Positions 1,886 to 60,808 of a stretch of 64,000 nt of DNA are shown one piece after another; position 1 is the stretch's first letter; every line of letters begins with the position of its first letter. The translations under genes and the position numbers were made by a program. Under the pieces are notes generated by a model. It saw only the letters and a list, made by a program, of their open reading frames with translations, did no database searches and had not been told where the DNA came from. Location of the stretch: NCBI GenBank assembly GCA_965552055.1, contig CBEVQO010000002.1, positions 256,001-320,000 on the forward strand, in the 5' to 3' direction. This stretch comes from an uncultured bacterium (GTDB lineage Bacteria > Hydrothermota > UBA3073 > NMUJ01 > CBEVQO01).

Positions 1886-1912
1886 ATTATAATCCCATTT
1901 TCAGTTTGTCAA
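1886..1912 (-). promoter_or_regulatory. sigma70-like promoter of the por operon (TTGACA-N15-TATAAT), probably leaderless
   Basis: Perfect boxes; 7 nt between the -10 box and the ATG; no SD. Confidence 0.75.
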
Positions 1913-1931
1913 TCATTTTTTTATAAAATTA

Positions 1932-2398
1932 TTAGCCCCTCCTCCCTGTCCCCACCACCCTCTTGCACACCCCTCGCTACGCAGGACACAGACCTCACCC
2001 TATCATCGCTCCTTAAACGCTTTACCCGTAATCAGTCAAGTTCCCAACCAGAAACCTCTTTCCCACCTCAAACCCTCACTCGCTTCCATTCCGCTATCCA
2101 GCAACCAGCCAAACACTCATCTCAAAATGCAGTCCCACCTCCTGCTCTCATCAGCACCTATCCGCAAACCACCTTTAATAAGCGCAGTCCGCAACCCAAA
2201 CCTTTATCCCATCTTGAACTCTTAATCGCTCTCATTGCGTTATTCAGCAGTCAATCTGATACTTCCCTCAAAATGTGGTCCCGCTCTCACTCCTATCAGT
2301 AAAAGAACTCCTCATCTGCTCCCAAAATGTGGTTCCGCTTTCAGCGCTCGGGGTGTTGACCTACAACCCATATGTAACATGCTCGGCTCCGCCTCGCA
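1932..2398. repeat. C-rich intergenic element whose ends are shared with 30881-31041; contains internal direct repeats
   Basis: Left end TTAGCCCCTCCTCC(G)CTGTCCCC and right end CAACCCATATGTAACAnGCTCG...CTCGCA occur at both loci; CAAAATGTGGT(C/T)CCGCT(C/T)TCA at 2269 and 2323, degenerate copy at 2123. Confidence 0.75.
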
Positions 2399-2437
2399 AT
2401 AATTTCTTGACAAATTTCGTATTTAAGTTATATTAGG

Positions 2438-3694
2438 ATGAGTGCAATGAATAACTGGGCTAGAATAATAATCGGTGATAGTAGAAAAATGATAGAAGTC
2501 GAAAATAACAGCATAGATTTGATTGTTACATCTCCTCCTTATTGGCATATTAAAGATTACGGAGTTGAAGGACAAATCGGATATGGTCAAAGTTTACATG
2601 AATACTTCAAAGATTTATACAGAGTATGGAAAGAGTGCTACAGAATTCTTAAGCCCGGAAGAAGATTATGTATAAACATAGGCGACCAGTTTGCTCGCTC
2701 TGTAATTTACGGCAGATATAAAGTTATCCCCTTGCATGCTGAACTTATAGCACAATGTGAGGACATAGGTTTTGATTTTATGGGTTCAATAATCTGGCAG
2801 AAGAAAACCACAATGAACACCACTGGCGGAGCAAATGTAATGGGCTCTTATCCCTATCCACCTAATGGAATGATTGAGATTGATTATGAGTTTATACTTA
2901 TTTTTAAAAAACCCGGAAAAAATGGAAAAGTCCCAAAAGAAATTAAAGAAAAGTCTAAACTAACTAAAGAAGAATGGAAAGAGTATTTCTATGGACACTG
3001 GTATTTTGGTGGAGCAAGGCAGTTAGAACACGAAGCCATGTTTCCAGAAGAATTACCAAAAAGGCTGATAAAAATGTATACTTTCATAGGAGAAACTGTT
3101 CTTGACCCTTTCCTCGGTAGCGGAACTACTGTAAAAGCAGCATTAAACCTGCATAGGAATGCAATAGGTTATGAAATAAACGAAAAATTTCTGGATGTGA
3201 TAAAGGAAAAACTCGGTTTAAAACAAAATTTGCTTCAATTTAATAAAAACATTCAGATAATAAAGCGAGGAAAAACAATAAAAGTTGATGCGGTTAATTA
3301 TATCCCAAGGATTAAAGATGCCAGACCAAGAATAGACCCCAAGAAATTTAATTTTAAAAATGACAGACTTTATAAAGTTGTTGATATTATAGACGAACAA
3401 ACCATTAAATTAAACACAGGTCTGCTTGTTAAATTTTTGGGAGTTAAAATAATCAAAAAGGAAGAAGCGTTAGAGTATCTAAGGAACCGCATTTTGAAAA
3501 AAGAAGTTTATCTTAAATTTGACAACCATAGTGACAATATCATAGATGAAAACACCGTCAGCGCTTATGTTTATTTAAAAAATAAAATATTTGTAAATGC
3601 CTATCTCATCAGGTCTGGAATGGCCAAAGCAGACAGGACAAAAGAGTATAAGTATAAAACAAAATTTATTGAATTAGAAAAAGAGCTAAAATAA
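2438..3694 (+). CDS. Beta-class N4/N6 DNA methyltransferase fused to a C-terminal thermonuclease (SNase)-like domain
   Basis: TSPPY motif IV precedes DPFLGSGTT motif I; C-terminus KVVDIIDEQTIKL...AYVYLKNKIFVNAYLIRSGMA has an SNase-fold pattern. Confidence 0.88.
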   Translation: MSAMNNWARIIIGDSRKMIEVENNSIDLIVTSPPYWHIKDYGVEGQIGYGQSLHEYFKDLYRVWKECYRILKPGRRLCINIGDQFARSVIYGRYKVIPLHAELIAQCEDIGFDFMGSIIWQKKTTMNTTGGANVMGSYPYPPNGMIEIDYEFILIFKKPGKNGKVPKEIKEKSKLTKEEWKEYFYGHWYFGGARQLEHEAMFPEELPKRLIKMYTFIGETVLDPFLGSGTTVKAALNLHRNAIGYEINEKFLDVIKEKLGLKQNLLQFNKNIQIIKRGKTIKVDAVNYIPRIKDARPRIDPKKFNFKNDRLYKVVDIIDEQTIKLNTGLLVKFLGVKIIKKEEALEYLRNRILKKEVYLKFDNHSDNIIDENTVSAYVYLKNKIFVNAYLIRSGMAKADRTKEYKYKTKFIELEKELK

Positions 3695-4362
3695 TGGCAA
3701 AAGAGTGGATATTAAATATGGCAACAAACAGATGGGGATTAAATAAAGAGAATAGCGTCGGTCCCGTATCCCAATGGATTCGTGAATGCAGCCCAAAAAC
3801 AATTAAAGATTGGGAAGAATTCTATTACAAAAAACTCGCTGATTTCCTTAAAAGCAAAGATATCTCTTTATCCCCTAAGGAATACCTCGAAGATCTCGGA
3901 AGAAAACTATATGTGAAAATTACAGAAGTTATCCAGGCAGAAATTGAGGAAGTAACAGAGGAAGATTGTATCGAATATATTTACAACCTTGTAATTAACA
4001 GAACTTATGACGGCTATCTAACAGAAATAAAAACAATATACGGGAAATTACAAAGAGATTTGGGTGTAGAGATAAAACCTGCACCGGATGAGTGGGATAG
4101 ACTTTATAATGTGGATTTTTACATTCAGGTTGGGGAGAAATACATTGGTTTGCAAATAAAACCCATAACCTATGAGCAAACGCCAGAGATTTACAGATGG
4201 AAAGAATGGCTTAGCAGAACACATAAAAAATTTGAACAAAATTTCGGCGGAAAAGTATTTATTGTATTTTCAATCAAAAAAGATAACAGGAAAGAAATTT
4301 ATAACTCTGAAGTAATTGAAGAAATAAGAAAAGAAATTGGAAGACTTAAAGGGAGTAAGTAA
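3694..4362 (+). CDS. MjaI-family type II restriction endonuclease
   Basis: VGPVSQWIREC...WEEFYY...VDFYI...GLQIKP (PD-QxK) pattern; coupled to the MTase. Confidence 0.82.
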   Translation: MAKEWILNMATNRWGLNKENSVGPVSQWIRECSPKTIKDWEEFYYKKLADFLKSKDISLSPKEYLEDLGRKLYVKITEVIQAEIEEVTEEDCIEYIYNLVINRTYDGYLTEIKTIYGKLQRDLGVEIKPAPDEWDRLYNVDFYIQVGEKYIGLQIKPITYEQTPEIYRWKEWLSRTHKKFEQNFGGKVFIVFSIKKDNRKEIYNSEVIEEIRKEIGRLKGSK

Positions 4363-4364
4363 AC

Positions 4365-7934: not shown

Positions 7935-7942
7935 TCAATTTT

Positions 7943-13012: not shown

Positions 13013-13434
13013 TTTTCAAAAAGTTTAGAAAAAGTGTCAATTATCACCCTTGCATACTTAAAACCCGCTTTTACCATATCAACATTCACCCCTCCTCTGT
13101 AATAGCCAAAAATATGAAGGTTTTCGTAAACGATTCTGAAAGCTGCGAGCAATTTACCATTGTGAGGCGCTTTCTTCAACCAATCTCTGTATCCCTGATA
13201 AGAAGTGGGCAATTCCGATGGCTTTTTACCTTTGCTTAAAATAAAAGCATCAATAGCGAATAATGCGGATAAATATCCAATAGCACATGCTTCTCTTACT
13301 TTTTTGCCATCTTTGTAAATTCCATATTCAACCGGAACTTCCTTCAAAATATTTTTTGCATTTTTATAATACCTTTTGGCTTCTGCTATCGCTTCTTCCA
13401 CACTTACAGGTCTATCTTTATCTCTTTCATCCAT
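13009..13434 (-). CDS. DUF5618-like (HEPN-like) protein
   Basis: EAKRYYKNAKNIL...YKDGKKVREAC...YENLHIFGYYRG. Confidence 0.7.
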   Translation of the reverse strand: MDERDKDRPVSVEEAIAEAKRYYKNAKNILKEVPVEYGIYKDGKKVREACAIGYLSALFAIDAFILSKGKKPSELPTSYQGYRDWLKKAPHNGKLLAAFRIVYENLHIFGYYRGGVNVDMVKAGFKYARVIIDTFSKLFEK

Positions 13435-13439
13435 CTCTT

Positions 13440-13466
13440 ATTTTAACAAAAAGTTTATATTGTCAA
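13440..13466 (-). promoter_or_regulatory. Promoter TTGACA-N15-TAAAAT, probably leaderless
   Basis: 5 nt from the -10 box to the ATG at 13434. Confidence 0.7.
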
Positions 13467-14014: not shown

Positions 14015-14058
14015 TTCTTAAATTTATTTCAAATATGCATTTGACAAGAAAAAAATTC

Positions 14059-14085
14059 TTGACAATCGGATATAAAGTTTAAAAT
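14059..14085 (+). promoter_or_regulatory. Promoter TTGACA-N15-TAAAAT followed by SD (AAGGAGG)
   Basis: Boxes and SD seen upstream of the ATG at 14104. Confidence 0.72.
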
Positions 14086-14103
14086 AATATAAAAGGAGGG
14101 GGT

Positions 14104-16785: not shown

Positions 16786-16794
16786 GGAGGGGGC

Positions 16795-21982: not shown

Positions 21983-21984
21983 AT

Positions 21985-22410: not shown

Positions 22411-22469
22411 AACTCACCTCCTTTCGCTATTTTAAACATTTTATATGGTTGTCAATAAAAATTTTAATG

Positions 22470-24823: not shown

Positions 24824-24825
24824 TT

Positions 24826-24901
24826 TGGTGGGCAGGGCCCGATTCGAACGGACGACCTTCTGGATGTGAACCAGACGCTCTAACCACTGAGCTACCTGCC
24901 C
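24826..24901 (-). tRNA. tRNA-Val(CAC)
   Basis: GGGCAGG acceptor stem; anticodon arm TCTGG-TTCACAT-CCAGA; GTTCGAA T-loop; encoded CCA; promoter TTGACA-N15-TATAAT at 24911-24937. Confidence 0.96.
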
Positions 24902-24983
24902 TCACTCTCTATTATAACAATTATCATAATTTGTCAAGTGAAAATTTCAAATTGACAAAATTAAAATCTCATTATTTATTTGT

Positions 24984-30817: not shown

Positions 30818-30880
30818 AATTCCCTCCTTTGTTTTAAGATAATGAATTTACAGAAAAGTCAAGCAAAAATTTGTTTATTT

Positions 30881-31588: not shown

Positions 31589-31639
31589 CTTTCCCTCCTT
31601 AATGAATATTAATCACAATTCTGATTTGTCAAATAATTT

Positions 31640-31675: not shown

Positions 31676-31734
31676 TTATTTTATACTTGACGAAAAAATA
31701 ATTTCATTAAAATAGGGTGCAAAAGGAGGGTGTT

Positions 31735-33194: not shown

Positions 33195-33236
33195 AATCTC
33201 CCTTGACTTTCACCTAAAAATGGATATATTTTCGAG

Positions 33237-52200: not shown

Positions 52201-55200
52201 GTGCAAACTTACCCTGCCTATCATCCCAATTTCCTTCTATGTAATGTGTGTAAGACTGAGGAATAAATTCTCCACCCAAAATTGTAAAATCACCTGTGAT
52301 CTTTAAAGAAGTTTGTGCTACTACACAATTTGTAACATTTATTTCAACATCAGCAAATTGATTATTCGCACCTTGCCATACATTTGAAGAATCACCATCA
52401 AATACAAACTTGCCAGAAGTTAATAATCTTCCTCCAGTATCATCGTAATCACCACCTACTCTATGTGTATAACTTCCGGCATCGTAACATCCTCCTTGTA
52501 TCTCAAAGTTTCCTTTCACAGTAATATCCGAAAGCGCCCATACTGTATCTGACACATTTATAACAAGATTGTTGAAGTAATCTCCTGTTAATAGTGTTAT
52601 CCTTTGTGTATCTCCATCGAAGATAAAAGTACCTGCATCTGCCCTAAACACTCCACTTATATTTTCAAAGTCGCCAGCTATTGTATGAGTAAAAGATTGG
52701 GGGTCAAATTCACCTTCCCTTATTCTTAACTTACCATCTATATCGAGCGAAGAATAGGCAACAACTTTCCCTGCTAGTTTATAAATATCAAGGTCATAAA
52801 TTGAACTGCTATCCGTTATCTTTATAGATTGATTATATTCACCTCTGAAACATAATTTACCTGTCCCGGGAATCAGCTTACCGTTATCTTCAAAATTACC
52901 AAAGATGTAAAGAACATTTGACTTCAATTTTAACTTTGCACCTGGATTTATCTTTACACTAAAAGCATATCCTGCAACATCAAGCACAGGGTCTCTTATA
53001 GTATCTGGTATTACTACATCTGAAGATTCATCTGGTACTCCTGCTGGCTTCCAGTTATTGGGATTACTCCACAAAGAGTCAACCGCTCCTGTCCAGCGTT
53101 TCTGTATGAGCCATTTTATCTCCGCACCATTTGTCTCTTCATCGTAAGCCTCTCCTGCTTTAGGACCGCTATACCCCGACACAAAAATTTTAACATTACC
53201 ACCTGCACCATCAGCATGGATATTTGTATCACATGTAGCATCAAAATATAAACCTATTAAAGTAACATTGTAAGTCCCTTGCCTATAAATATGCAAATGA
53301 GTGCTCGGATTACCACCAGGTTCAACATTCTCAAAAATAACATTGGAAATATTTTGTATAACTGCTGGCGTATCTATTACCATTCCTTCACTATTAGCAT
53401 AACTGAAATAAAGTTTTGTAATGTTTACAGTTCCCCTTATTTTAAATGAATAGTAAGTTGATGGAGATATGGATGTAACTGTAGGCGCTGCTCCCTCCGA
53501 GATAAACGAACCTGTTTCTCTTATAAGTACTCCTTTTGCTAACCTTAAAATAGAACTACCATAAAGATGCAAAACTCCATCACTCACAAGATTGCCTACC
53601 ACCACTAGATCACTACCTGATACATTAAGCTCACCCGATTGACCAATATAGACGCTATCTTTTAAAGTATCGTAGTAACCTGTTGAAAGATCAAATTCTC
53701 CTGAAACAACTTTTAGTAAACTATCCACTATTAATTTGCTGCTCATTAAAGCTGTACCTGTCACATTTATCGTTAACCTATTAAATTTATTACCCGAACC
53801 AAGATTAATTTGAGGAGATGTGCCTGCAAATACTATTTCGCCAGCTGAAGGAGAAAATGCACCCCCTGATACATCGAAATCTCCTTTTATTGTGTCAACA
53901 TAATTTCCAGGGTCGAAGCTTCCACCGTTTATTATCTTAAAATCGCCAAAAATTCTAAGACTCGTATTTGCTACTGCGTTTCCTCCATCAATTGTTAAAG
54001 AATAGAAATTATTTGTAGATGATGTTGTTATCTGAGGATTTGCTCCGGTTAAAATTATTTCTCCTGCTGTCGGTGTAAACTCAACTTGCGTATCATCCCA
54101 ATTCCCACTTATCCTGTGAGTATATGAACCTGGGTCAAATTTCCCACTTTCAAGATAAAGTGCACCATTCACAGTTATATTACTTAATGCTGTGACAGTA
54201 TTTGTGGGTCTTAAGATTAAATCATTAAAATAGTTGCCCGCACCCTGTGTAATTTGCTGGTTAACTCCACAGAAAACAATGCCTCCTTGAGATGCTTTGA
54301 AAATACCGCCCGCATCAGACCAATCTCCTTTTACAGTATCTCTGTAAGGCGAGGGTATAAATGTTGCATTATTTTGAATTGAAAAATCACCATAAATTGC
54401 AATACAACTTTCAGCTTCTACTGTATCTGCAACAATCCATAAGTTATAAAAATGATTTTGCGGTGAAGTGTAAATATATGTATGTGTGTTTCCACCAAGT
54501 TCAACACGCCCTGCATTTGGCTTAAATTCTCCATTTGTAACATCAAAATTACCTTTCACTTTCAATACATATGATTGTGGGTCAAAATAGGCATTTTCCA
54601 ATGTAAAATCACCATCAATAGTGAGATCGGACAACATTCGAATTGTATCACCCGAAAGCACCTCAAAGTCATAAAAACTATTTGTTGATAACTGTGTTAC
54701 TTTAAACAAAGAATTTGTTGTTGAAATACTTATTTTACCTTGACCATGCTGGAAAGTGCCTGCTTCTTCTAACCACTCTGTTCCCGAAAGATTTATTGTA
54801 TTGCCATTTTGATTGTAAGTGCCATTCTTCAAAACGAATTTTCCTTGAACCGTTATTGAAGTAACCTGGATAACAGTACCTGTTGCATTTATCACAAGAT
54901 CATTTAAATAAGATGTAGCACCTGTAACTTGTAAAGTCTCTACGCTACTTCCTGCAAATATCACACAACCTGTTCCACAATCAAAGTTCACTACCTTAAA
55001 ATCGCCTTTTACTGTCAAAGTCTCATCCTCTGCTCGACAGATACCAGTAGAAGTAACTACAAAATCATTTTCACAGGTTATATCTGTCTTCAAAGTACAC
55101 TCACCTGCTATTTCAAGGTTATAATAGGTCTCATCGGGTACGCCCATATCACCGGCAAGGACGACCGTACCCGTGCCATAATTGAATACACCATTATTTT

Positions 55201-55753
55201 CCCATTTTTTACATATTATCAACCTCGTATCGTTACCTGCATTTAAAATACCCGAAGATATTATCTTTAAACTGTCAGTCTTCGCACTATCTCCATCGTT
55301 AATTGAAATTTCGCCCGAGATTAAAATATTTTTGAATCTTCCCTCATTATGAATGACCGCTCCTTCTTCAAATTCTATGGTGCCATCAATTTGCCGTAAA
55401 GTTCCTTCATCGATCCAATGTCCTCCCACGGAGATAGTATAATTAGAGTTTAATCTTAAAATACCATTTGAACGAATTATTACATCGTGTTCAACTGACA
55501 GATTTTTATCAACGGTAAGCGATTCATCTTCAATTATGAGCCAACCGCATTCAGCGTCGTCCGAAAAAATGCGCGGACAACTGCGACCCGATGCTAAACT
55601 TGGAATCTTAACACTATCCGCAGTGGTAGGCACTCCTTTAGGTATCCAGTTACTCGCTCTATGCCAGTCAGAATCAGTGGAACCATTCCAAGTTCTAAGT
55701 ACCCCATAGAGGGGTAACGAAAAAAGAAAAATTATCACAGAAAATTTTTTCAT
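37178..55753 (-). CDS. Giant secreted repetitive protein (6191 aa): seven beta-solenoid-like super-modules plus C-terminal PQQ-like beta-propeller
   Basis: Uninterrupted ORF; signal peptide MKKFSVIIFLFSLPLYG; 7x W.G...W..P.NW...P start motif and 7x Y.G..(A/G/S)G(E/D).Y(D/E)...W end motif; C-terminal G.LYA...G...W blades. Confidence 0.92.
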   Translation of the reverse strand: MKKFSVIIFLFSLPLYGVLRTWNGSTDSDWHRASNWIPKGVPTTADSVKIPSLASGRSCPRIFSDDAECGWLIIEDESLTVDKNLSVEHDVIIRSNGILRLNSNYTISVGGHWIDEGTLRQIDGTIEFEEGAVIHNEGRFKNILISGEISINDGDSAKTDSLKIISSGILNAGNDTRLIICKKWENNGVFNYGTGTVVLAGDMGVPDETYYNLEIAGECTLKTDITCENDFVVTSTGICRAEDETLTVKGDFKVVNFDCGTGCVIFAGSSVETLQVTGATSYLNDLVINATGTVIQVTSITVQGKFVLKNGTYNQNGNTINLSGTEWLEEAGTFQHGQGKISISTTNSLFKVTQLSTNSFYDFEVLSGDTIRMLSDLTIDGDFTLENAYFDPQSYVLKVKGNFDVTNGEFKPNAGRVELGGNTHTYIYTSPQNHFYNLWIVADTVEAESCIAIYGDFSIQNNATFIPSPYRDTVKGDWSDAGGIFKASQGGIVFCGVNQQITQGAGNYFNDLILRPTNTVTALSNITVNGALYLESGKFDPGSYTHRISGNWDDTQVEFTPTAGEIILTGANPQITTSSTNNFYSLTIDGGNAVANTSLRIFGDFKIINGGSFDPGNYVDTIKGDFDVSGGAFSPSAGEIVFAGTSPQINLGSGNKFNRLTINVTGTALMSSKLIVDSLLKVVSGEFDLSTGYYDTLKDSVYIGQSGELNVSGSDLVVVGNLVSDGVLHLYGSSILRLAKGVLIRETGSFISEGAAPTVTSISPSTYYSFKIRGTVNITKLYFSYANSEGMVIDTPAVIQNISNVIFENVEPGGNPSTHLHIYRQGTYNVTLIGLYFDATCDTNIHADGAGGNVKIFVSGYSGPKAGEAYDEETNGAEIKWLIQKRWTGAVDSLWSNPNNWKPAGVPDESSDVVIPDTIRDPVLDVAGYAFSVKINPGAKLKLKSNVLYIFGNFEDNGKLIPGTGKLCFRGEYNQSIKITDSSSIYDLDIYKLAGKVVAYSSLDIDGKLRIREGEFDPQSFTHTIAGDFENISGVFRADAGTFIFDGDTQRITLLTGDYFNNLVINVSDTVWALSDITVKGNFEIQGGCYDAGSYTHRVGGDYDDTGGRLLTSGKFVFDGDSSNVWQGANNQFADVEINVTNCVVAQTSLKITGDFTILGGEFIPQSYTHYIEGNWDDRQGKFAPSSGEIVFNGTGIQVIYQDTSKNNFYNLKISSNCQALTPLKIFGDFTLSSGSFVPGSYIEIKGDWVDTGGTFTPTSGIVHFTGIKQDVKTGSGNNFYNVKVEVEDSLKAQSSLNVDGYFKILSGVFYPDSYTHYIGGTWWDLGGVFNPSSGKIVLDGYADSIYQDTTKNAFYNLEINTAYSKKANTGIIVKGNFVITQGEFIPPQTVMKVYGDWDSRGGIFHATSGWIGFPGKSNIYLGTGNYFYNFGISTSDTIKAQDSLNIHGMFWIYQQGVFDGGNFTHRIKGDFKSADGKLLVKNSKIILNGEVQNIDIGTDTLYLLVIESDTVKAQSNLMVLDSTKVKSGVLILNSKGLLTGKMEIGQSGGVVMKNSGGGIAADTVIVAGLMKMEGAAQLQLVKGIEVASTGKFVTRSVGNAQPLITHRNSGQYYGFGVKGEIDVEGAIFRYLNSNGLYIYPAATLTDLSSVRFDSLQRTAGTDRFLQIYRSGTFDKTIYDHYYDTVYAGDVNIHIDGGVSTTDTVAKLKVFYYAGSGAGEAYDEETNGGAVLWTMGKVWVGGTGAPWPAGTHWRWSKAHNWDPPDDIPKLNDKVLIPQRSVYPHVDTLHAECASILLLSSTMLYVDTVCTLNVSGDVELKSGAKIVQDSNSVIRVGGNWKNMGGVFDQRSGLVEFYGANAKIWSTTFLNIKITGAGVGIADGETVKVTNSFNLLSGATFYGGNNAVFDVKGWNNSGGTFDCQTGEVIVRDTIVPNEVFYNLTIGANAKIPYTKLVVKNDLKILSTKTLRALNCTLYVGGDFMNNGSFDAGSGIVIFNGTGNQEIKGNAITFNKLIVDKTGGVLYAKTSITVTDFKLRQGEFNPGNFTHYVKGNWDDAGGVFTPDSGMIVICGTGKQQIKQGTGNNFYKLKIALQNAQDTVEFASSIDVNSEFIMQNGVIIPGAYTHYICGNWDDALCTFKPSQGEIVLDDADTIYIKQGANNNFANLTINTGSVVNLETNIKVNNFTLQSGYLKDAVACTLWVDGDWIEAGGNTDFDAATVILQGSTKDLQLNTGSKLWNLVIDVGSTDTVEFKSQIDVNGDFVMKSGVILPGAYTHYIASDWVDTLCEFVQTEGGVVLDGISPVIYQKEGNKFNNLTINVSGVATAKTKLLIGGDFTLQQGTFSIEDTVICGGNWSDAGGTFTDLTGTVKLIGENATINQGATNHFNNLIIEGTGRIETQTNITVKGNLRIISGTFYLGDALTHTVDGKVIAEDSLHLGQSELKVSDSLIIKETGVLYMENQCVLTLGKAALIDGKFEAFGTTPKIQNDGINYYSFKVRGEIEVLRLVFSGADVNGMYIDTSATIIDLSNVSFQSVQPGGNPSRHLQIHRNADFEKEFLGCSFDASCDTNVYANGYGNSVRLIFSDYSGPKGGEDYDEEVNGAEIIWMIKKVWTGAQDTLWSNPFNWDPVGLPADTEDVVIPGGLTNYPVLDMDDTIASLNIETGARFKEGPGGSYTLVIKGNMHNMGRFDAGDGTIEFTGLANQIALGDSGEFYNLVINKQTGSITAGGPIIIKNNITLKSGEFIPGVYTHIVGGGWYEINGTFRPTSGKILFNGQNAVIKQKEGNYFHNIEIDVDNNLTLQTDVVVKGDVKITSGQLILDTFELQVEGNWDSETGVIQDLTGTVIFAGNKQQINVSANDYFNNLVIQANDTVTALDSIKIMGDFKILQGVYYAQSYTHRIGGDFYAIGGYFKQDAGKVIFIDSSQIYTDDEIFNDFVCEGTAIAKSNLQINGDVEIKGKFIPGDYTHTVNGNWIDTLGEFKAQEGEIILSGVNKGIYQGTGNNFYNLTISGNITAYTSINVDGDITITGTFNPGSFTHRVAGDWDDEGGIFNQISGTIIFDGVTQQINTKAGNYFNNVICEVTNKLIAADSLDINGDFVILSGEFVPNAYTHRIGGNWADTGGIFIDTTSTIIFDGTKQKIYAKIGNHFNNVKINPSDTVWAMTALKTEGYFAILSGTFIPGNFTHEIGGDWYDKGGVFKPTGGTIILNGENPHIYTSATNNFYNLTIDVTGVATAEDGLNINGALLINAGELYLSDGLTHKVASGVNVYGTLDLGTSVLEVGTGLNVQSGGVLKLIGSPALKLGTQLYIANGGKIFTSGSPEITAKDTTKPFDFNVYGELEIDGLTISYIDTGGLCIYNQAQITRLDEVKFTNQRGTGHRVYMQIYRNADFNATFSLHSYDQYCDTNVYADGGGNNVDIIMSGASGSKAGENYDHEVNGANIEWTSADVWVGGTNSSWWDAVAAGLPASHNAKNWSLGRPPVDTELVIIPANANNNYPILNITDTCAGVLIKSGAKLTMNSDKILHVQGDFTIKGQFDLSDGTLFVWNDFTNDGVFNHTGGWVVIESTGVISGKCTFYNLKFADNSNVSVNYGDTLKITNNFIIGTNADFHGGTNTLIQVYSWNNSGKFHYEQSTVEFLADMTLPQDTFYNLVINAIDSLNAELICMNDLHIKQTLKGKGYTIYVGGDWINDGNFIHGGSDVVFNGGSDQYVKGGLSAFDKIIINSTGGELIAQDGLTIEGDFMIYKGGFEPSSYTHYVKGDWVDTGGIFRPSAGKIVFNGAVQHILTDADNYFYEMEINADSVYFDSPIDVNGALYMLSGVIEPWGYVHEIAGDWVDTAVIFTQDSGKIILDGNKFKIIQGSNNNFANLEIRASDTVFAQSALKIYGDFMLSSGIFEAGSYTHTVRGDWIDTGGVFTAEEGKILFDGKEGEIWQGANNYFANIEIKVQDTLSAKTNITLKGDFVLNSGVFDAPSLIKVGADWIDTGGVVVFPANADVWFTGSVSNVLQDTVKNRFQNFTIKTSNTYLKSSIICEGNLTIESGSLNPGSYTHIVYGNFTSQGVFTADSGKFVFRGDASAQVELANGNYFNTIIIEKNLSQLTASSALTLKGDFILKKGTFYAGSYTHTVEGNWIDTGGVFQPTDGKIVLTGRTSKIYQGENNYFANLDITPNLTDTIIAETPIRVKGDITISGGRFEPGAFTHIIEGNWNDQNGKFNPTAGEIKFEGDTIEIITSSQNNFYNLTLNSQKVTPLTGLKINSKLKLLTGELDIQTGVHTVEDSVIISGNLKMTGGELRGKYIVINDTLIMQGASILKVGETFKAQEGSYCEFTGLTPQITALDTLNRFSFRFSGKLNCERLKFSYADSDGFYIDTLAEIISLNNVSFEKVGNKGKHLQIYRKGLFIQNFTGCYFDASCSVNVYADGGGDSTVIYMVNYSGAKAGESYDEEVNKAHIYWIAQRVWQGDVDSLWSNPNNWSPPGVPTDTEDVVIPDTAVRFPYLDTNAYCMSLRIDDSAYLHCDTFKLYLKGDLIVNGTLYADSGEIIFCGDYQQVINLTPQSYFYNLTINKNSGKVLCQSPINIKGDFVLLKGEFSPASYIHYVEGNWIDTGGTFTATSGEIRFTGNSEIWQAQDNNFANIKIAGTVTAKTPLKIYGDITITGTFNPDTFTHEVKGDWSDVLGTFHQTGGKIKFTGNYQKITSSQTNYFNNVEINCLTSVEAFDSLHVHGDFVINKGKFIAGSFTHYIGGDWVDTGGTFNPVGGKIVLTGKGEIWQKASNYFINLEIDGDTIWQKTDIFVKNDFTVKSGVFIPSDNVLEVRGDFDASGGEFKADDGTVYLAGGAQQIKLGTGNYLYNLSMAPTASVTALDSLVIKGDLTLLSGEFIPGSYTHRIYGDWNTVSGTFAPTSGKVIFLGSKSTVKLGNGNNFYDIKIEKTDTLKALSKLRIYGDIELASGIFVPDTFTHTVKGDWIETGCTFRPTGGKIIFAGTSQNITQLTQNNFYSVIVKSTGTVTAQSSLRIYGDFVIEAGEFVPGTYTHYVKGNWNDTLGTFTPSAGEIILCGENQEIYQKSTNNFYDVIIDSGTQVVTKTGTQIDGKLWIKKGKFDFVNRRHTIRDSIIVDSILTLNSSVVSANSYIIVNSGGLLQLSGSCTLKVADTLFIENGGKFSANGVTPTITSINNLSYFGFEVRGEIDVTALNVNRVCKRGLRIWEDAQIAALDGINFTNIESGGTFLQIYRNAGYTATFSGHSYDASCQYNFHLKCTSPDSAIVTMVAYSGDKAGDAYDTTTQYARIEWILADVWTGTVDDRWDNPSNWQDGTVPTATDQVIIQDAPFDPTVNTTAQCAAIFVKNGANVNLTVPGMYLDCNGNVKIEKGGGINLISKSTIFCAGTWIDNGTFQQTAGVVTFDGTNCITNSETFKSLVISGDTLSLAAGVTVTVTDSFHIGTGAVFKGGEGAIFKTSSWINQGKFMPQTGTVILQAKMDVPEDTFYNLTIDADTIKLTNNLVILNDLQINAGRVFKANDDTIRIKGDWINNGEFIPDSSTCIFCGDQPQQISQSKFYNLIIENSYSTKKEEKDSTKQVASVTATGPLTIYGDFKILKGEFDPGSYTHIVMGDWIDTGGTFTPSAGEIVIAKDSVKIIQGQNNYFYNLKFQDADFVLSGKSVLKVQNVLTIDQNSAFIIDSLAEVKVGANLIAKGKFIAKGLMPSITSTQQGVKYPEVRLKGNVSISRLLCDGISGLILDTTSQIDTLENVWFMNMSSLSKALRVIKTSAYSDTYSGLLFDTTCYKNISANGAGIYIFCENYMGEHSGELYEEELNGAQIVWKDSAYIDLKWQHPGIRIFRKDVTSGIGHAFDGASYYSTKSGTLYAVDSLGNLLWKKKYGGYASDLICVRGDTLFFGTSAGTLYAVNRTDGDVIWRTNIGDSIISGVFEYGGVIYFGAKDGNFYAVDRGDGSVIWSFSTGGAIRAMPGYGFGFLHGGSCDDTLYKIGAGTGVEQAKYGTDGDIVNIPAFGRVAGSHYRIYFGNIKKNVYCLDSLRAQPYDLIWQDVLNAPAIKGPWYWWGKIYFADTLGNIYCYDIDGNPNPWGWAQYPLNISAKPTTKPLVYNGKIYIGTEKGLIAVSEKTGKILWKFDPGQKIESTPMLNVAQGVITFTTSGKIFRIGIGGAKWKRKNGMNPNVKVRKSM

Positions 55754-55759
55754 TTTTTA

Positions 55760-55786
55760 ATTATAAACCGCTTTCGGGAGTGTCAA
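55760..55786 (-). promoter_or_regulatory. Promoter TTGACA-N15-TATAAT of the giant-protein operon, probably leaderless
   Basis: Perfect boxes; 6 nt to the ATG; no SD. Confidence 0.78.
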
Positions 55787-55819
55787 GAAAAAATTTTTAA
55801 AAATTTTTGTCAAATTTAA

Positions 55820-56245
55820 TCAGAAAATATAAGAGAAAAGAAAACCAAGGGACACGCCCAGAAAAGCACCGCACAATATCTCCAAGGGTGTGTGCCCCCA
55901 TATTTCTCTTAAAGGAACATAAGGAAATTTATGCTCCTTAAATAGCATCTGCACTATTTTATTTAGGATTTCGGCTTGCCTGCCTGCTGCACGCCGTAAA
56001 CCCCCTGCTTCATACATTATAAACAATGTAAGACAAAGTGAAATGCTAAATGCAGAAGAACCGACCCCCTCTCCAATACCAATTGCTGTGGTTAAAGCTA
56101 CAAAAGATGAAGTATGGGCACTAGGCATACCACCGGGCTCAACGAGCTTCCTGAAATCGGGCTTCTTATCCTTAATCCAGTATATTATAAACTTCAATAT
56201 CTGACTTATAACGGCAACAGCTATGAAAATAAGCCAGTAATACAT
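55820..56245 (-). CDS. Divergent PAP2 family protein (DUF212)
   Basis: SQILK..GGMPSAH..MYEA.GLRRAAG.QA..LN..GHTP.E. Confidence 0.92.
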   Translation of the reverse strand: MYYWLIFIAVAVISQILKFIIYWIKDKKPDFRKLVEPGGMPSAHTSSFVALTTAIGIGEGVGSSAFSISLCLTLFIMYEAGGLRRAAGRQAEILNKIVQMLFKEHKFPYVPLREIWGHTPLEILCGAFLGVSLGFLFSYIF

Positions 56246-57069
56246 CTTCTACCCCCCTCCACCAGAAAAATAAGAATTAACCTTAAGAAAAGACCACAAA
56301 TCACAAAAATATCGGTAAAAAAATTAAATCCATAATGCTTTTTGAAATACTTATACATCGAAATGTTATGATGGAGAAAAGCTTTTGCCCAATCTTTTTC
56401 CACAACTGCTCCAAATTTATGATAAAAAATAGCATCGGGATAATAATAATTTTTATAGCCCATCTTCTTTAATCTGTAACACAAATCCACATCTTCACAG
56501 AACAAAAAAAATCTCTCATCAAATCCACCTGCTTTCCAGAAAACATCTTTTTTTATTAAAAAAACAGCACCCCTTGACCACTCAATTTCCTGCACCTTTT
56601 CATAATCTGCATCGTACATCAAATATTCTCTCGAAAACCTGCTTTTTGGAAAAATCTTTCGCAAAATAGATTTCCGCCCAAAAGCAACCCTCATAATCGT
56701 TGGAAAACGACGCAAAGATAACTGCAAACTACCATCAAAATTCAATAATTTACCTGTCACAACTCCAGCATCTTCCTTTTTCTCTGCAAAGCTGAGTAAT
56801 TTCTCGATAGCATCGAGTTCCGGGATAACATCTGGATTTAAGAAAAGTAAATATTCGCCTTTTGCTAACTTCGCACCAAGATTGCAGGCACGGGCAAATC
56901 CAACATTCCTGTAAGGATAAATATAAATAACACCATCCAAATTGCAATCACCACTGTTATCAACCACTATTATCTCATTTTCTAATTTTAAATATTTTTT
57001 CAAATTCCTTACGAGATTTTTTGTAAATTCCGATGTCTTATAATTCACGATTATCACAGATATTTTCAC
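56221..57069 (-). CDS. Glycosyltransferase family 2 (WbbL-like)
   Basis: IIVNYK, VVDN, NVGFARACN, LNPD, GGFDERFFLFCEDVD. Confidence 0.92.
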   Translation of the reverse strand: MKISVIIVNYKTSEFTKNLVRNLKKYLKLENEIIVVDNSGDCNLDGVIYIYPYRNVGFARACNLGAKLAKGEYLLFLNPDVIPELDAIEKLLSFAEKKEDAGVVTGKLLNFDGSLQLSLRRFPTIMRVAFGRKSILRKIFPKSRFSREYLMYDADYEKVQEIEWSRGAVFLIKKDVFWKAGGFDERFFLFCEDVDLCYRLKKMGYKNYYYPDAIFYHKFGAVVEKDWAKAFLHHNISMYKYFKKHYGFNFFTDIFVICGLFLRLILIFLVEGGRRCITGLFS

Positions 57070-58895
57070 TTCTTTTCAAATATCACAAAATATCTTTTGG
57101 GGGAAGCAAATTCTTTATAAATTGCTAAAATCTTTTCATATTCGGGTAAAGAATATTCCTTCTTCTTAAAGCCAAATTCTCTCTCGCAAATCAAACTATC
57201 ATTTTTTTCTTCATACAGAATTTTGCAATATATTAAGTCATCTTCATATTCATATTTTTGTGGCAGATAAACGATTTTAATGTTTTCCGGCAATTTCACA
57301 CATACTTTATATTTTGACAAAAATGGTATATCAATTACAAGAGGATAATGTCTTTCTTTAATTGATAAATACATTGCCTCTCTACCTGTCCCCAATATAT
57401 TCGCAGGTAAACCAAAATTATAACGGTTTAAATACGAATGCCTTAAATAATCGGGTGCTATGAATTTTAAACTTATTTCAACAGCAGAATTTAAATCTTC
57501 AACTCCCTTTATCTCATAAGAAATTAATTTCGCTCCCTGCTTGATATTGTTTGTATAACCCTGCATCAACTTATCGATCTCTTCTTTGCTTTTTCGCATA
57601 AAAATCCTGCGATATAAACGAGATAAAGAACCTCTTACCTCACACATAAATTCACCTTCGAGGTTAAAATTTTTATCAATTTCGCCTTTCATAAAAACCT
57701 TTGTATAGGAATTATCAAAATCTGGTAAAGGAACACGATAAAATTCAAAACCTTTATCTTTCACGATAAATAATTTCCTGCCTGCAAACTTACTGCGGAG
57801 AACAAAATTTTCATTAAATCCTTTTAATATGCCAAAAATACCACCTTCCTGTATCTCAGGAAGAGGAAGCTTGGGGTCAAGCAGTAAATAGCCCGCTTTT
57901 TGCGGAACCGCTACGAGCATATCGGTAAATAATGGCATAGGTATCTCTGTATCTATCTCAAATTTCGAAAAATAAGCAGGATAAGCTTTTATACCGCACA
58001 ATTTTAAAAATGCAATCAAAAGTGCACATTTATCTTTTATATCACCATATTTATTTACATATATTTTAGAGCATCTGGTTGGTTTGAAACCTGCGAAAGA
58101 AAGAGCTATAGGGATATCACGCCATTCTTTCGTAACCCATTCATAAATGAGATACAAACTATCTGTGGTCAAATATTTCTTCAATTTTTTCATCCCTTTT
58201 TGAGATTTATTAAACTCTTTTCTCAGGTAATCGGCAACTTCTTTCCATGTTTTAAATGTGGTATATTGAACATTAGGAGTTATATCAGCTGATGGCGGAG
58301 AGAAAGGTTCGGCAATATACCTATCAACAGAATCCACCCAGAATCTGTAAATTTTAAATTTACCACTATCTTTTTCTTCAAACTTTATAATATCACCTTC
58401 AATCTTGTATTTAAAATATTGTTTTTTTGGCAAAATTATTTTCAACTCTTTATGAACTATTGGTTCACTTTTTTTCATCTGCACTTTATCATAAAGCATC
58501 AATTTTCCTTTTATCTTCTTCTCTTTTTCAAATTCAATAAATATCTCGCTACCCGGATTTACATCGGGATAAGCTATCGTTTTTGCCATTAAATTGGCAT
58601 ATTGCGGAGCTTTAAAAGTTTCGGATGCCGAGAGGTCTCCAATAGCTCCTTTAACGGGATGTTTCTTTTTGCCATCAACACATGTATACACCTGCAAGAT
58701 TTTAAAATCTTCTTCTTTGTGATATCGGAAATAATCGTTGCCATATTTTTCTCTTCCTCTTTTCGTCAAAATCTTCATGTGTTTTTTATATCTGTAGATT
58801 TGTTTTTTGCCATCAATCTTTATAACTTCATTTTCAAGCAGATAGACAGCGGATGCCCCTTTTAAATCGAAAAATATCAAAAAAAGAAAAATCAT
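57066..58895 (-). CDS. DUF3857/transglutaminase-like protein, catalytic residues degenerate
   Basis: YGDIKDKCALL (Cys to Ile), FTDML (His lost), LLDP. Confidence 0.78.
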   Translation of the reverse strand: MIFLFLIFFDLKGASAVYLLENEVIKIDGKKQIYRYKKHMKILTKRGREKYGNDYFRYHKEEDFKILQVYTCVDGKKKHPVKGAIGDLSASETFKAPQYANLMAKTIAYPDVNPGSEIFIEFEKEKKIKGKLMLYDKVQMKKSEPIVHKELKIILPKKQYFKYKIEGDIIKFEEKDSGKFKIYRFWVDSVDRYIAEPFSPPSADITPNVQYTTFKTWKEVADYLRKEFNKSQKGMKKLKKYLTTDSLYLIYEWVTKEWRDIPIALSFAGFKPTRCSKIYVNKYGDIKDKCALLIAFLKLCGIKAYPAYFSKFEIDTEIPMPLFTDMLVAVPQKAGYLLLDPKLPLPEIQEGGIFGILKGFNENFVLRSKFAGRKLFIVKDKGFEFYRVPLPDFDNSYTKVFMKGEIDKNFNLEGEFMCEVRGSLSRLYRRIFMRKSKEEIDKLMQGYTNNIKQGAKLISYEIKGVEDLNSAVEISLKFIAPDYLRHSYLNRYNFGLPANILGTGREAMYLSIKERHYPLVIDIPFLSKYKVCVKLPENIKIVYLPQKYEYEDDLIYCKILYEEKNDSLICEREFGFKKKEYSLPEYEKILAIYKEFASPKRYFVIFEKK

Positions 58896-60727
58896 TTTTC
58901 TTTCAAAATAATTTCACCCTCAAAAGCTTTTTCCATCTTATCATAAAATTCCTTACAAGCAGGATAATCCTCCGGAGGAATTAGGGATTTTTTGAAACAG
59001 AAGAAGGATTTTTGAATTATTTTATTATCTTCGATTTTTATTTGCCGTGCTACTTTTATATAATCATTCTCAAGGACTGTATCCCGTGGTACAAAAAATA
59101 TTTTTAGATTTTCGGGGATTTCTGTTTCGATTATAGATTTACTCGCCATTTTAACAGTGAAATAAACGGGATATTTCCTTTTTTCCAGTGCAAAAGGTGA
59201 AAATTGTGAAGGCGAAAATTTCACACTAACCCTGCCACCTCCCAGATGCCATTCATCTCCTATAATCGTCGCATAATCGGGAAGCGTTGCAAAAATCTCA
59301 AGGGTCATCGGTTTTGAGAAATCATCGGGATTGCCGAAGCGAATGGAATCAATTCTGGCAGAAGGATGAGCGGTAGAGAAGCTCTGTTCAAATAGTTGCT
59401 TTATCTGTTCCTTAGATAAAAACTTTAACATTGCACGCAAACCCATATCCGTAGAGCCCTTGCCCCACATCTTAAAATACATCTTCGCAACATTATCTCT
59501 GGATAAAGTAATCTTCGTCTCAACATAATTTAAATTGGCTTCAGGAGGAACAGACGGCGTCCTACGCATAGTATCGCCATAGGGTGTGCAGATAAGCACA
59601 TCTTTGTCGGCTTCTATCGGAGATAAAAATTCAACAGAACTTTCAATCGTAGGGTCAAGATAAATTATAGTGTCTTCTCTGACAATCGCACAGATAGCAT
59701 GATTAAAACGCGAAATATCTGCAATATCATGTGAAATACGCATAACAGGATTTGTAAGCACCATAAAGGCTTTTTTAATACCCGCTTCCCTTAGCATTGC
59801 ACAAAGTAAACCCGCTTTATCCCTGCATACCCCGTATTTCCTGTAATAAACACTATCAGGATACTCCGGAACAAAACCACCGTATCTACCTGTTAATCTC
59901 GTCTCAACATACCTTATCTCTTTATTGACAAATTCATATAAACTTCTCACCTTATCTTCAAAAGATTTCGCATTTTCTATCAATTCTTTAACTTTTTGTT
60001 TCAATTCTTTACCGCATTTCAATCTTTTTTCGCAGACATTATAATACCATCTTGAGATTTCTTTCCAGTCTTTTGCATTGCTGACAATTACTTTTGTAGC
60101 AACATCAGGAATGGGTGGCATTAAGGGTTCTTTTACAATCTGTGGAATATCCCTTGCATACCATTTGTATTTTATCATATTTCCCTCTTCTTTTCTTTCA
60201 AAAGACACACTTAAATTTCCTTCGATTTTATATTTAAATTTCAGGGATTCCGGAGCTTTTAATATCATAACTTTCTCCATAATGGGGTCTTCTCCTTCGA
60301 ACAAAGTAAAAGTCGAATAGTGACCTTCCATTGGTGGTACTTTCATCACATATTCTACTGCAAAATCTATTTCGTCTTCCTGAGACAATGTTGGGAAAAT
60401 TATTTTAACTGAACGGAAATTAGGTATAAGAAATCTTGAGCCCTTCCATGCGGGCATAGGCATATCCTTTATGTTATCAGGTGGAACAGTTGTAACAGTA
60501 CCATCTTTATGAATAACCTTAGCGGAAAGAACCCTAACAGTATCATAAAGTGTTATATACCAGAAAGTTTTTTCCGAATGAACTTTTATACCAAAGGGGG
60601 ATAACATTTTAATCCTTTTATGAATTATCATTTTTCCCGTGCAATCTTCATTTAAAAATATTTTTAAACTATCAAATTTCACGATAGCATCTGCTTCCAG
60701 CTGGAATATGAGAAGAAATACAGGCAT
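58892..60727 (-). CDS. DUF3857 plus transglutaminase-like protein with intact Cys-His-Asp triad
   Basis: YGVCRDKA, FNHAI, YLDPT. Confidence 0.85.
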   Translation of the reverse strand: MPVFLLIFQLEADAIVKFDSLKIFLNEDCTGKMIIHKRIKMLSPFGIKVHSEKTFWYITLYDTVRVLSAKVIHKDGTVTTVPPDNIKDMPMPAWKGSRFLIPNFRSVKIIFPTLSQEDEIDFAVEYVMKVPPMEGHYSTFTLFEGEDPIMEKVMILKAPESLKFKYKIEGNLSVSFERKEEGNMIKYKWYARDIPQIVKEPLMPPIPDVATKVIVSNAKDWKEISRWYYNVCEKRLKCGKELKQKVKELIENAKSFEDKVRSLYEFVNKEIRYVETRLTGRYGGFVPEYPDSVYYRKYGVCRDKAGLLCAMLREAGIKKAFMVLTNPVMRISHDIADISRFNHAICAIVREDTIIYLDPTIESSVEFLSPIEADKDVLICTPYGDTMRRTPSVPPEANLNYVETKITLSRDNVAKMYFKMWGKGSTDMGLRAMLKFLSKEQIKQLFEQSFSTAHPSARIDSIRFGNPDDFSKPMTLEIFATLPDYATIIGDEWHLGGGRVSVKFSPSQFSPFALEKRKYPVYFTVKMASKSIIETEIPENLKIFFVPRDTVLENDYIKVARQIKIEDNKIIQKSFFCFKKSLIPPEDYPACKEFYDKMEKAFEGEIILKEK

Positions 60728-60808
60728 CTTAAAGAATAATCATTATCCAGGTATGTCAATAGAAATTTTTGAGCTTGACAACTTGACAATTTGTGTATAA
60801 TAGAATGT

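What the first reader, a model, noticed from the sequence alone, without database searches (positions are those of the whole stretch)
1886..60801. Housekeeping-type promoters with an invariant 15-bp spacer between -35 and -10
Seen, counted by hand: TTGAC(A/G/T) or TTGTCA and TAnnnT boxes separated by exactly 15 nt at 1886-1912(-), 13440-13466(-), 14021-14047(-), 14059-14085(+), 22429-22455(-), 24911-24937(-), 30836-30862(-), 31606-31632(-), 31687-31713(+), 55760-55786(-), 60733-60759(-) and 60775-60801(+). Four are perfect TTGACA-N15-TATAAT, including both tRNA promoters. Established: sigma70/sigmaA promoters have an optimum of 17+/-1 bp and 15-bp spacers are normally weak. The two 16-bp cases (2407-2434, 33203-33230) precede accessory genes. 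Inference: this lineage has a primary sigma/RNAP geometry (or DNA topology) tuned to a 15-bp spacer.
Basis: partly seen in the sequence, partly recalled or inferred. Interest (0 to 1): 0.8.

Follow-up and report, generated by a model that had tools for sequence, protein, structure and literature searches.

The report
Promoters with a 15-bp spacer
In this uncultured, likely heat-loving bacterium and its closest relatives, hundreds of ordinary promoter-type sites place their two recognition boxes 15 base pairs apart instead of the near-universal 17, which likely means that their RNA polymerase measures promoters with a shorter ruler.

Summary
Confirmed and genome-wide. Perfect TTGACA-Nn-TATAAT sites number 121 at N15, 27 at N16 and 7 at N17; in non-coding DNA 104 versus 0.1 in shuffles. 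N15 sites head 20 tRNA/tmRNA genes, the rRNA operon and about 400 genes. Anchoring on start codons alone recovers both boxes 15 apart and leaves no room for a -10 two bases further downstream. The organism is probably WOR-3. Among 212 informative phylum genomes the mode is 16 in 157, 17 in 51, and 15 only in this order (3), so the step is about 1 bp from a 16-biased phylum. The sister family keeps N15 though RpoD is not found there. This genome keeps a fast-diverging RpoD, a short Bacteroidota-type sigma, reverse gyrase and a GyrA without its GyrA-box. No flap or zipper indel. Best reading: the core polymerase likely sets the ruler, and relaxed DNA may sharpen it; which sigma reads N15 is open. 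No RNA data. Not found in print in ten searches. This scan noted N15 before, in this genome and in other DNA.

The parts
1886..1912 (-). Perfect N15 promoter; ATG of the PorC-type oxidoreductase gamma subunit 7 nt after the -10 (near-leaderless)
   Evidence: TIGR02175 match starts at residue 1, profile position 1
2407..2434 (+). N16 promoter of an MjaI-type restriction-modification pair (2438-4362)
13440..13466 (-). N15 promoter; G-ATG 5 nt after the -10 (DUF5618 gene)
14021..14047 (-). N15 promoter with variant -35 TTGTCA that overlaps a + strand TTGACA; ATG of a class II aldolase 6 nt after the -10
14059..14085 (+). N15 promoter, divergent partner; SD-led gene for an 893-aa T9SS-tail protein
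22429..22455 (-). N15 promoter, SD-led 141-aa ORF
24911..24937 (-). Perfect N15 promoter ending 9 nt before tRNA-Val(cac) 24826-24901
30836..30862 (-). N15 promoter (TTGACT), SD-led radical SAM gene
31606..31632 (-). N15 promoter, SD-led 173-aa ORF
31687..31713 (+). N15 promoter (TTGACG), divergent partner, upstream of fabF (31971)
33203..33230 (+). N16 promoter; G-ATG 6 nt after the -10; 107-aa ORF without Pfam hit
55760..55786 (-). Perfect N15 promoter; ATG of the 6191-aa ORF 6 nt after the -10
60733..60759 (-). N15 promoter; G-ATG 5 nt after the -10 (DUF3857/transglutaminase gene)
60775..60801 (+). Perfect N15 promoter ending 7 nt before tRNA-Val(gac) 60809-60884, followed by a PaREP1 gene and thrS

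Best explanation
These are the ordinary promoter-type sites of this genome, with canonical -35 and -10 boxes 15 bp apart, and they are likely read by an RNA polymerase whose core scaffold, inherited across the order, probably holds the -35-reading and -10-reading sigma domains one base pair closer than in the 16-biased phylum and two closer than in E. coli. Shown: the spacing, its place before tRNA, rRNA and ordinary genes, its restriction to one order, and its persistence in a sister family where RpoD is not found. Inferred: (1) the sites are active promoters, starting at a purine (often G) 5-7 nt after the -10; (2) the ruler lies mainly in the core (flap, clamp, zipper, dock) and changed by point substitutions, since no indel exists; (3) in this genome the diverged RpoD probably still reads many of them, which would explain the genome-specific extended -10 (TG one base further upstream than usual), while the short sigma does so in the sister family; (4) a relaxed chromosome (reverse gyrase plus a GyrA without GyrA-box) probably favours 15 over 16 somewhat further here.
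For: Spacing and controls. Order-level trait: G000 348/66/81, G001 62/18/6, G002 48/14/5 at N15/16/17; none of the other 259 phylum genomes has a strict N15 maximum (hand tally); G000+G001+G002 form a clade on RpoB+RpoC (SH-aLRT 99). N15 holds with and without RpoD: RpoD not found in G001-G003 (99, 87, 66% complete) by four searches, and dnaG is followed by another gene in G001 and G002. G030, whose RpoD is also decaying (terminal branch 1.38), has the same 16 mode as its sister G024 (150/55 and 129/50), so sigma turnover need not move the mode. The promoter signature differs between G000 (C before TTGACA 54%, TAwAAT, G at -15) and G001 (TAwwTT, no G-15 bias; n=22), while N15 is shared. Order-shared core substitutions include beta' zipper E39D (E in 22 of 22 others) and beta flap K825R. 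PMC2613000 (passages) says the flap positions sigma 4 and helps set spacer length; PMC3173786 (passages) says the zipper contacts the spacer.
Against: No transcript, biochemical or structural data. No indel in flap tip, zipper or dock. No single RpoD, RpoB or RpoC column separates five 17-mode from seven 16-mode families (0 hits; 135 of 150 random splits also 0). Clade-shared substitutions are expected for any clade, and N15 arose once, so they carry no statistical weight. The short sigma is shared by all N15 genomes and evolves more slowly there, which fits the rival just as well. Free sigma 2-4 peptides alone sense spacer length (Dombroski 1996 as cited in PMC2613000). The G030 argument rests on one genome and on an unproven takeover.
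Confidence: 0.5

Rival explanations
1. Sigma takeover: the short (about 265-aa, no region 1.1) sigma of the degP-sigma-M23 operon, a relative of the Bacteroidota primary sigma, became the housekeeping factor in the order's ancestor and itself imposes 15 bp. RpoD then decayed (G000) or was lost (sister family).
For: It is the only group 1/2-like sigma found in G001-G003. Rates are inverted: RpoD/short-sigma distance ratio 1.48 in G000 versus 0.25-0.63 in 11 class members. G000 RpoD keeps only 66 of 79 invariant columns and scores below the RpoD cut-off (284.8 < 354). Homologs are named Bacteroidota RpoD/SigA, and that family is primary there (PMC12632263, passages). Its region 3.2-4 linker is 2-3 residues shorter than RpoD's (read).
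Against: The same short sigma occurs in most 16- and 17-mode genomes. The 21 minority N15 sites examined in such genomes precede unrelated genes, with no common regulon. G030 stays at 16. G000 RpoD is full length, in the dnaG operon, keeps its main -35 and -10 reading motifs, and differs by one residue in a second assembly.
Confidence: 0.23
2. DNA topology is the main cause: reverse gyrase, and in G000 a type IIA enzyme that cannot supercoil, leave the chromosome relaxed, which rotates the best spacer from 16 to 15 for an unchanged holoenzyme.
For: Reverse gyrase is present in G000, G001 and G002 and not found in 18 other class members. G000's only GyrA lacks the GyrA-box, which 25 of 25 other C-terminal domains have; the box is needed for supercoiling (PMC12903076, passages). 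About 0.06 of superhelical density equals one spacer base (PMC9303308, passages), so 16 at -0.06 maps to 15 at about 0. N15/N16 is sharper in G000 than in G001+G002 with TAnnnT (odds ratio 1.9, p=2e-4).
Against: G001 and G002 have an intact GyrA-box, and gyrase dominates where both enzymes occur (PMC2647321, passages), yet they are N15. G029 (16) and G026 (17) have both enzymes and no N15 mode. Thermotoga maritima is centred on 17 (PMC3636130, passages). The sharpness difference is not significant with TAWWWT (p=0.10). Twist does not remove the shorter distance along the helix (own knowledge).
Confidence: 0.12
3. The diverged RpoD itself is the ruler in G000, through its one-residue deletion in region 3.0/3.1 and insertions in the finger and the 3.2-4 linker; the sister family's short sigma adapted afterwards to promoters that were already N15.
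For: These indels are unique to G000 among 27 aligned RpoDs. Changes at positions equivalent to E. coli V454 and E458 coincide with a TG shifted to -16/-15 (71 versus 16 of 255 N15 sites); H455 and E458 read G-14 in E. coli (PMC2613000).
Against: It needs a second, independent adaptation in the sister family. There is no close RpoD relative with which to date the indels: nothing between 100% and 53% identity.
Confidence: 0.1
4. The spacing is not what polymerase reads: the functional -10 lies two bases downstream (true spacer 17), or TTGACA is the site of a global activator or repressor.
For: TATAAT followed by A/T often contains a second TAnnnT at +2 (56 of 106 N17 hits). No transcript data exist.
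Against: EM with a free spacer puts T 0.97, A 0.97 and final T 0.86 at N15. In-frame ATGs peak 5-6 nt after the N15 box, so a shifted box would leave 3-4 nt. G occupies position 5 or 6 after the box in 16 of 20 tRNA/tmRNA promoters (p=0.001). TTGACA is not paired with its inverse at a fixed distance. The same counting returns sharp 17 in family f4 and sharp 16 in other families.
Confidence: 0.04

Closest known systems
Canonical sigma70/sigmaA housekeeping promoter (E. coli, B. subtilis, T. maritima; 49 TSS-mapped species in PMC12641261 and bioRxiv 10.64898/2026.09.23.753901)
   Same: TTGACA and TAnnnT boxes, C before the -35, A/T tracts upstream, AT-rich spacer with a G-rich 3' part, place before tRNA, rRNA and ordinary genes.
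   Different: TG at -16/-15 rather than -15/-14. Start likely 5-7 rather than 7 nt after the -10.
Bacteroidota primary sigma (sigmaA of Bacteroides fragilis, no region 1.1)
   Same: A short sigma of the same family is present and is the only group 1/2-like sigma found in the sister family.
   Different: Bacteroides promoters use -33/-7 elements with TANNTTTG (PMC12632263); here the boxes are canonical and only the geometry differs, and G000 still has RpoD.
Supercoiling-tuned spacer model (PMC9303308) and the GyrA-box-less type IIA topoisomerase of Aquifex aeolicus (PMC2647321)
   Same: Short spacers are favoured by relaxed DNA; G000 has reverse gyrase and one GyrA without the box.
   Different: In E. 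coli this tunes minority promoters around a 17 optimum; here 15 is the genome's norm, also in relatives with an intact GyrA-box.
Alternative-sigma promoters with nominal 13-16 bp spacers (sigma28, sigma32, ECF; recalled, from no call)
   Same: Short nominal spacer.
   Different: Different box sequences, longer -10 elements that account for much of the nominal shortening, and small regulons. G000 has a separate FliA-type and ECF-type sigmas.

Membership tests
sigma70/sigmaA housekeeping promoter | -35 hexamer TTGACA | tested here: met
   131 of 194 start-codon-anchored -10 sites have at least 5/6 TTGACA at N15
sigma70/sigmaA housekeeping promoter | -10 hexamer TAnnnT with conserved T, A and final T | tested here: met
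   EM matrix 0.97/0.97/0.86
sigma70/sigmaA housekeeping promoter | Spacer 17 +/- 1 bp | tested here: not met
   64.5% N15, 7.7% N16, 0.7% N17 of 689 sites
sigma70/sigmaA housekeeping promoter | Extended -10 TG at -15/-14 | tested here: not met
   TG at -16/-15 in 71 and at -15/-14 in 16 of 255; the 17-mode relative G013 shows the canonical position (n=16)
sigma70/sigmaA housekeeping promoter | Start about 7 nt after the -10 | tested here: inconclusive
   Indirect anchors point to 5-7 nt; no RNA run listed
sigma70/sigmaA housekeeping promoter | Drives stable-RNA and core genes | tested here: met
   By position only: 20 of 26 tRNA/tmRNA genes with an upstream TTGACA, tandem sites before 16S, 396 of 503 sites upstream of a same-strand ORF
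sigma70/sigmaA housekeeping promoter | Read by the group 1 sigma without an activator | not testable with these tools
   Two candidate sigmas in G000; needs reconstitution
Group 1 RpoD (G000 protein P0001) | Regions 1.1, 1.2, 2, 3, 4 and dnaG-rpoD linkage | tested here: met
   Pfam list; gene order
Group 1 RpoD (G000 protein P0001) | Score above the RpoD_Cterm (TIGR02393) cut-off | tested here: not met
   284.8 versus 354 bits
Bacteroidota-type short primary sigma | Regions 1.2-4 without 1.1, closest to FCB RpoD/SigA | tested here: met
Bacteroidota-type short primary sigma | Sole group 1/2 sigma and reads -33/-7 TANNTTTG promoters | tested here: not met
   G000 also has RpoD; the N15 class has TTGACA/TAwAAT boxes. 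TANNTTTG sites were not counted separately
DNA gyrase (G000 GyrA) | GyrA-box in the C-terminal domain | tested here: not met
   Absent in G000, present in 25 of 25 others; below gyrA cut-offs, while GyrB passes

The most novel reading that the evidence does not exclude
The -35/-10 ruler of bacterial housekeeping transcription is an inherited, stepwise trait (17, 16 or 15 by lineage within one phylum). This order reached 15 by re-gearing the core polymerase so that the whole promoter is compressed (spacer -2, start site -1 to -2, extended -10 shifted), independently of which sigma is primary, giving a natural orthogonal promoter class that 17-bp polymerases would read poorly.
Probability: 0.4. 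Interest if true: 0.88.

Novelty: new variant of a known kind. Interest (0 to 1): 0.76.

Why it matters
The 17-bp optimum is treated as a physical constant of the sigma70 holoenzyme, and a 2026 preprint concludes that the canonical spacer holds across the bacterial domain, from a genome-wide scan limited to 16-18. One phylum with families fixed at 17, 16 and 15 is a natural series for asking what sets the ruler (core, sigma or DNA twist), testable with recombinant proteins and no culture. It also means standard promoter finders miss this lineage's promoters, and it may supply orthogonal promoter-polymerase pairs.

Tried and rejected
Expression: no RNA holder listed for window 55500-64000; no evidence either way. 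Lineage by named genomes: the genome-contig scan returned four unrelated loci; the WOR-3 assignment rests on named RpoD hits at 52-53% identity. Closer RpoD relatives: the metagenome scan gave one 100% copy and two distant hits. Family f3 as a second N15 lineage: suggested by perfect sites (11/3/0) but rejected with the looser pattern (69/205/178 and 63/202/171). Flap, zipper or dock indels: none. A short-sigma N15 regulon in 16/17-mode genomes: 21 sites examined, unrelated downstream genes. Columns separating 16- from 17-mode families: none. Repeat family or palindromic operator: rejected. N16 equals accessory genes: p=0.12. The stand-alone sigma-3 hit near the window proved to be an insert in ribosomal S14. 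A CarD motif search found nothing, but it used a crude recalled pattern and shows nothing. Two papers (a -10 recognition structure and the Aquifex topoisomerase study) were not held, so residue-to-base assignments at -9/-8 were not used. No folds or complexes were predicted, since they cannot include promoter DNA. No Aquificota genome could be reached as a control. Rows dropped: G017 from the GyrA count (wrong ORF picked), G005 from the short-sigma alignment (motif missed), 50 of 262 genomes with fewer than 25 sites from the mode tally.
Full report
Observation. All twelve sites are present as written, four are perfect TTGACA-N15-TATAAT, two of these precede the window's two tRNA-Val genes, and the two N16 sites are real. 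The window lies in a 2.23-Mb, 97%-complete genome (G000). Perfect sites by spacer are 7, 121, 27, 7 and 4 for N14 to N18; with TAnnnT they are 45, 416, 93, 106 and 48. Of the 106 N17 hits, 56 come from a TTGACA that already has an N15 box; 410 of 416 N15 spacers are distinct. In 317 kb outside ORF cores, 104 perfect N15 sites stand against 0.1 in dinucleotide shuffles (max 1 in 20). Of 503 TTGAC[AGT]-N15-TAnnnT sites, 396 lie within 120 nt upstream of a same-strand ORF. ORFs came from my own simple caller, so starts are approximate.

Tests without pre-selecting the spacer. Taking all 689 non-coding TTGACA and learning the -10 with a free spacer gave 64.5% N15, 7.7% N16, 0.7% N17 and 25.6% none; shuffled input gave a flat result. 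Anchoring on 439 start codons alone, TTGAC[AGT] peaked at -32 (51) and TAWWWT at -11 (49), which is 15 apart; a second pair at -44 and -23 marks SD-led genes. Of 47 tRNA/tmRNA genes, 26 have a TTGACA within 60 nt: 20 have a TAnnnT at N15, one only at N17, and five none at 13-19. The 16S gene has two N15 sites in tandem. The same counting gives a sharp 17 in family f4 (for example 2/4/237), so the method is not biased to 15.

Where transcription likely starts. No RNA run was listed, so this part is inference. In-frame ATGs peak 5 (68), 6 (33) and 7 (23) nt after the -10 among 396 sites; two such starts in the window are backed by profile matches that begin at the protein's first residues. The base before ATG is G in about 93 of 105 gap-5 cases, against 140 of 659 SD-led cases (the 93 is back-calculated from a rounded percentage). 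G also stands at position 5 or 6 after the box in 16 of 20 tRNA/tmRNA promoters (p=0.001 against 25% G), which points to a start nucleotide rather than a translation signal. Across 49 species the start is centred 7 nt after the -10 (PMC12641261, section 17). A -10 two bases further downstream would leave 3-4 nt and is very unlikely. The extended -10 is also displaced: TG at -16/-15 in 71 and at -15/-14 in 16 of 255 sites, whereas the 17-mode relative G013 shows the usual position in a small sample.

Lineage. The nearest named RpoD hits (52-53%) are labelled candidate division WOR-3 or Cloacimonas, so the phylum is probably WOR-3. 16S GC of 62% and an amino-acid proxy near 68 C (formula recalled) suggest a thermophile. 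TTGACA-Nn-TAWWWT was counted at N15, N16 and N17 in 262 phylum genomes at least 70% complete. By hand tally, of 212 with at least 25 sites in their best class, 157 peak at 16, 51 at 17, one ties, and three peak at 15: G000 (348/66/81), G001 (62/18/6) and G002 (48/14/5). The 50 set aside include none with a strict N15 maximum. Other spacer lengths were not counted for these genomes. G000, G001 and G002 are the same order and a clade on RpoB+RpoC (SH-aLRT 99 with a composition warning for G001/G002). N15 therefore arose once, in a phylum already biased to 16; kin are not independent and I make no cross-genome statistical claim.

Sigma factors. G000 has five sigma-2 matches: RpoD (575 aa, after dnaG), a short sigma in a degP-sigma-M23 operon, a FliA-type and two ECF-type proteins. 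RpoD keeps its main -10 and -35 motifs but is diverged: 47-51% to relatives in regions 2-4, where other pairs share 49-80%, while its RpoB and RpoC are not unusually distant. It is below the RpoD cut-off and has a one-residue deletion in region 3.0/3.1, single insertions in the finger and the following linker, and changes at the equivalents of T440, R441, V454 and E458 (E. coli numbering partly from PMC2613000 passages, partly recalled). In G001-G003, four searches found no RpoD, only the short sigma and an ECF, and dnaG has another neighbour in G001 and G002. This is 'not found', not proof of loss. On a fixed tree the RpoD/short-sigma distance ratio is 1.48 in G000 and 0.25-0.63 in 11 class members. 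The short sigma occurs in most of the 30 relatives, and its homologs include Bacteroidota RpoD/SigA. Against a built-in N15 preference, 21 minority N15 sites in 16/17-mode genomes (G004 11 of 11, G020 4 of 4, G022 5 of 5, G024 1 of 4) precede unrelated genes, and G030, with a decaying RpoD, keeps its sister's 16 mode.

Core enzyme. The beta-flap tip has no indel in G000-G003; the zipper, clamp helices and dock have none either. Order-shared substitutions include beta' E39D in the zipper (E in 22 of 22 others) and beta K825R before the flap-tip helix (also in G029), and G000 alone has K for the zipper arginine that contacts the spacer (PMC3173786 passages). These are leads only. No column of RpoD, RpoB or RpoC separates 16- from 17-mode families.

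Topology. Reverse gyrase is present in G000, G001, G002, G026 and G029 among 31 genomes. G000's single GyrA lacks the GyrA-box and scores under the gyrA cut-offs; 25 of 25 other C-terminal domains have the box (one wrong row dropped). The box is required for supercoiling (PMC12903076 passages), so G000 is predicted to have a relaxed chromosome. One spacer base is worth about 0.06 of superhelical density (PMC9303308 passages): 16 at -0.06 maps to 15 at about 0, while 17 to 15 would need +0.065. But G001 and G002 keep the box, gyrase dominates where both enzymes occur (PMC2647321 passages), G026 and G029 are not N15, and Thermotoga is centred on 17 (PMC3636130 passages). G000 is sharper than G001+G002 with one pattern (p=2e-4) but not the other (p=0.10). 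Topology is at most a contributor.

Mechanism and odds. That these are the housekeeping promoters and are read at 15 I put above 0.9. For the cause: core scaffold, with relaxed DNA as a helper in G000, 0.5; short-sigma takeover 0.23; topology 0.12; RpoD indels 0.10; misreading 0.04. The core reading rests on one pattern, that the mode follows the lineage across a change of sigma complement while box details differ between the two families. It has no direct molecular support.

Literature. Ten full-text searches found no report of a housekeeping 15-bp mode; 'WOR-3 + promoter + sigma factor' gave 0 papers. Most subscription journals are not in the library. PMC12641261 (passages and sections 17-19) finds 17 predominant in 49 species with an E. 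coli-trained model. The ProFinder preprint (passages) reports a median of 17 in every panel genome and concludes that the canonical spacer holds across the domain, but its genome-wide gate allows only 16-18. I did not see their supplements (Fig. S3B; Tables S24, S47), which may hold per-genome or per-phylum spacer data for WOR-3. PMC12632263 was read in passages.

Earlier notes of this scan report N15 in this genome (e1-5215273), N15 with RpoD loss in other genomes (e1-7075373, e1-7541346, e1-7541342) and the phylum's 16 mode (e1-5058940, e1-5244173). They are unchecked notes and not independent support; my counts of both traits in the first 30 relatives preceded those look-ups. What the few lines shown did not mention: the start-codon and tRNA anchors with the G at +5/+6, the shifted TG, the sigma rate inversion, and the GyrA-box loss.

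Verdict. Real, strong and lineage-specific; a new variant of the sigma70 promoter whose cause can be settled in vitro. Interest 0.76.

Noticed in passing
G000:C1:27242-29584 (L254:143-2485, P0242), outside the window: The only type IIA topoisomerase A subunit lacks the GyrA-box and blade repeats, unlike 25 of 25 relatives; with reverse gyrase present this looks like an independent Aquifex-like loss of supercoiling.
   Followed up: partly
L147:1366-1671 (-), G000:C2 near 239,600, outside the window: Zinc-type ribosomal protein S14 carries an insert of about 40 residues that scores as sigma-70 region 3 (45 bits, cut-off 25.3; 16 of 27 identical to the genome's RpoD). Among 63 hits only its own 3-member cluster has both domains. 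It might tether polymerase to the ribosome; untested.
   Followed up: partly
Phylum-wide, handles G000-G263: A 16-bp mode is the commonest in the phylum (157 of 212 informative genomes), sharp in several families (G129 4/190/11, G162 10/377/47).
   Followed up: partly
G000 genome-wide; window 13434, 33237, 60727: Near-leaderless genes start with G-ATG 5-6 nt after the -10; the same pattern appears in G001/G002 but not in samples of G004, G013 or G014.
   Followed up: partly
G001:C15, G002:C16, G003:C8 (L042, L043, L041): Sister family: RpoD not found; the short sigma of the degP-sigma-M23 operon is the only group 1/2-like sigma.
   Followed up: yes
L038 (G030:C1:45408-49142): A second fast-diverging RpoD (62 of 82 invariant columns kept) in a 16-mode genome with a well-conserved short sigma.
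   Followed up: partly
window 37178-55753 (-): 6191-aa ORF directly behind a perfect N15 promoter; Pfam finds only a C-terminal beta-propeller, nothing in the first 3095 residues.
   Followed up: no
window 2438-4362 (+): MjaI-family restriction-modification pair behind an N16 promoter.
   Followed up: partly
window 60898-61278 (+) and 13009-13434 (-): PaREP1-family and DUF5618 small genes placed behind N15 promoters, the first between tRNA-Val and thrS.
   Followed up: no
G000, N17 list: Most of the 13 clean N17 sites fall into two or three near-identical groups (repeated promoter blocks), so independent N17 promoters are even fewer than counted.
   Followed up: no
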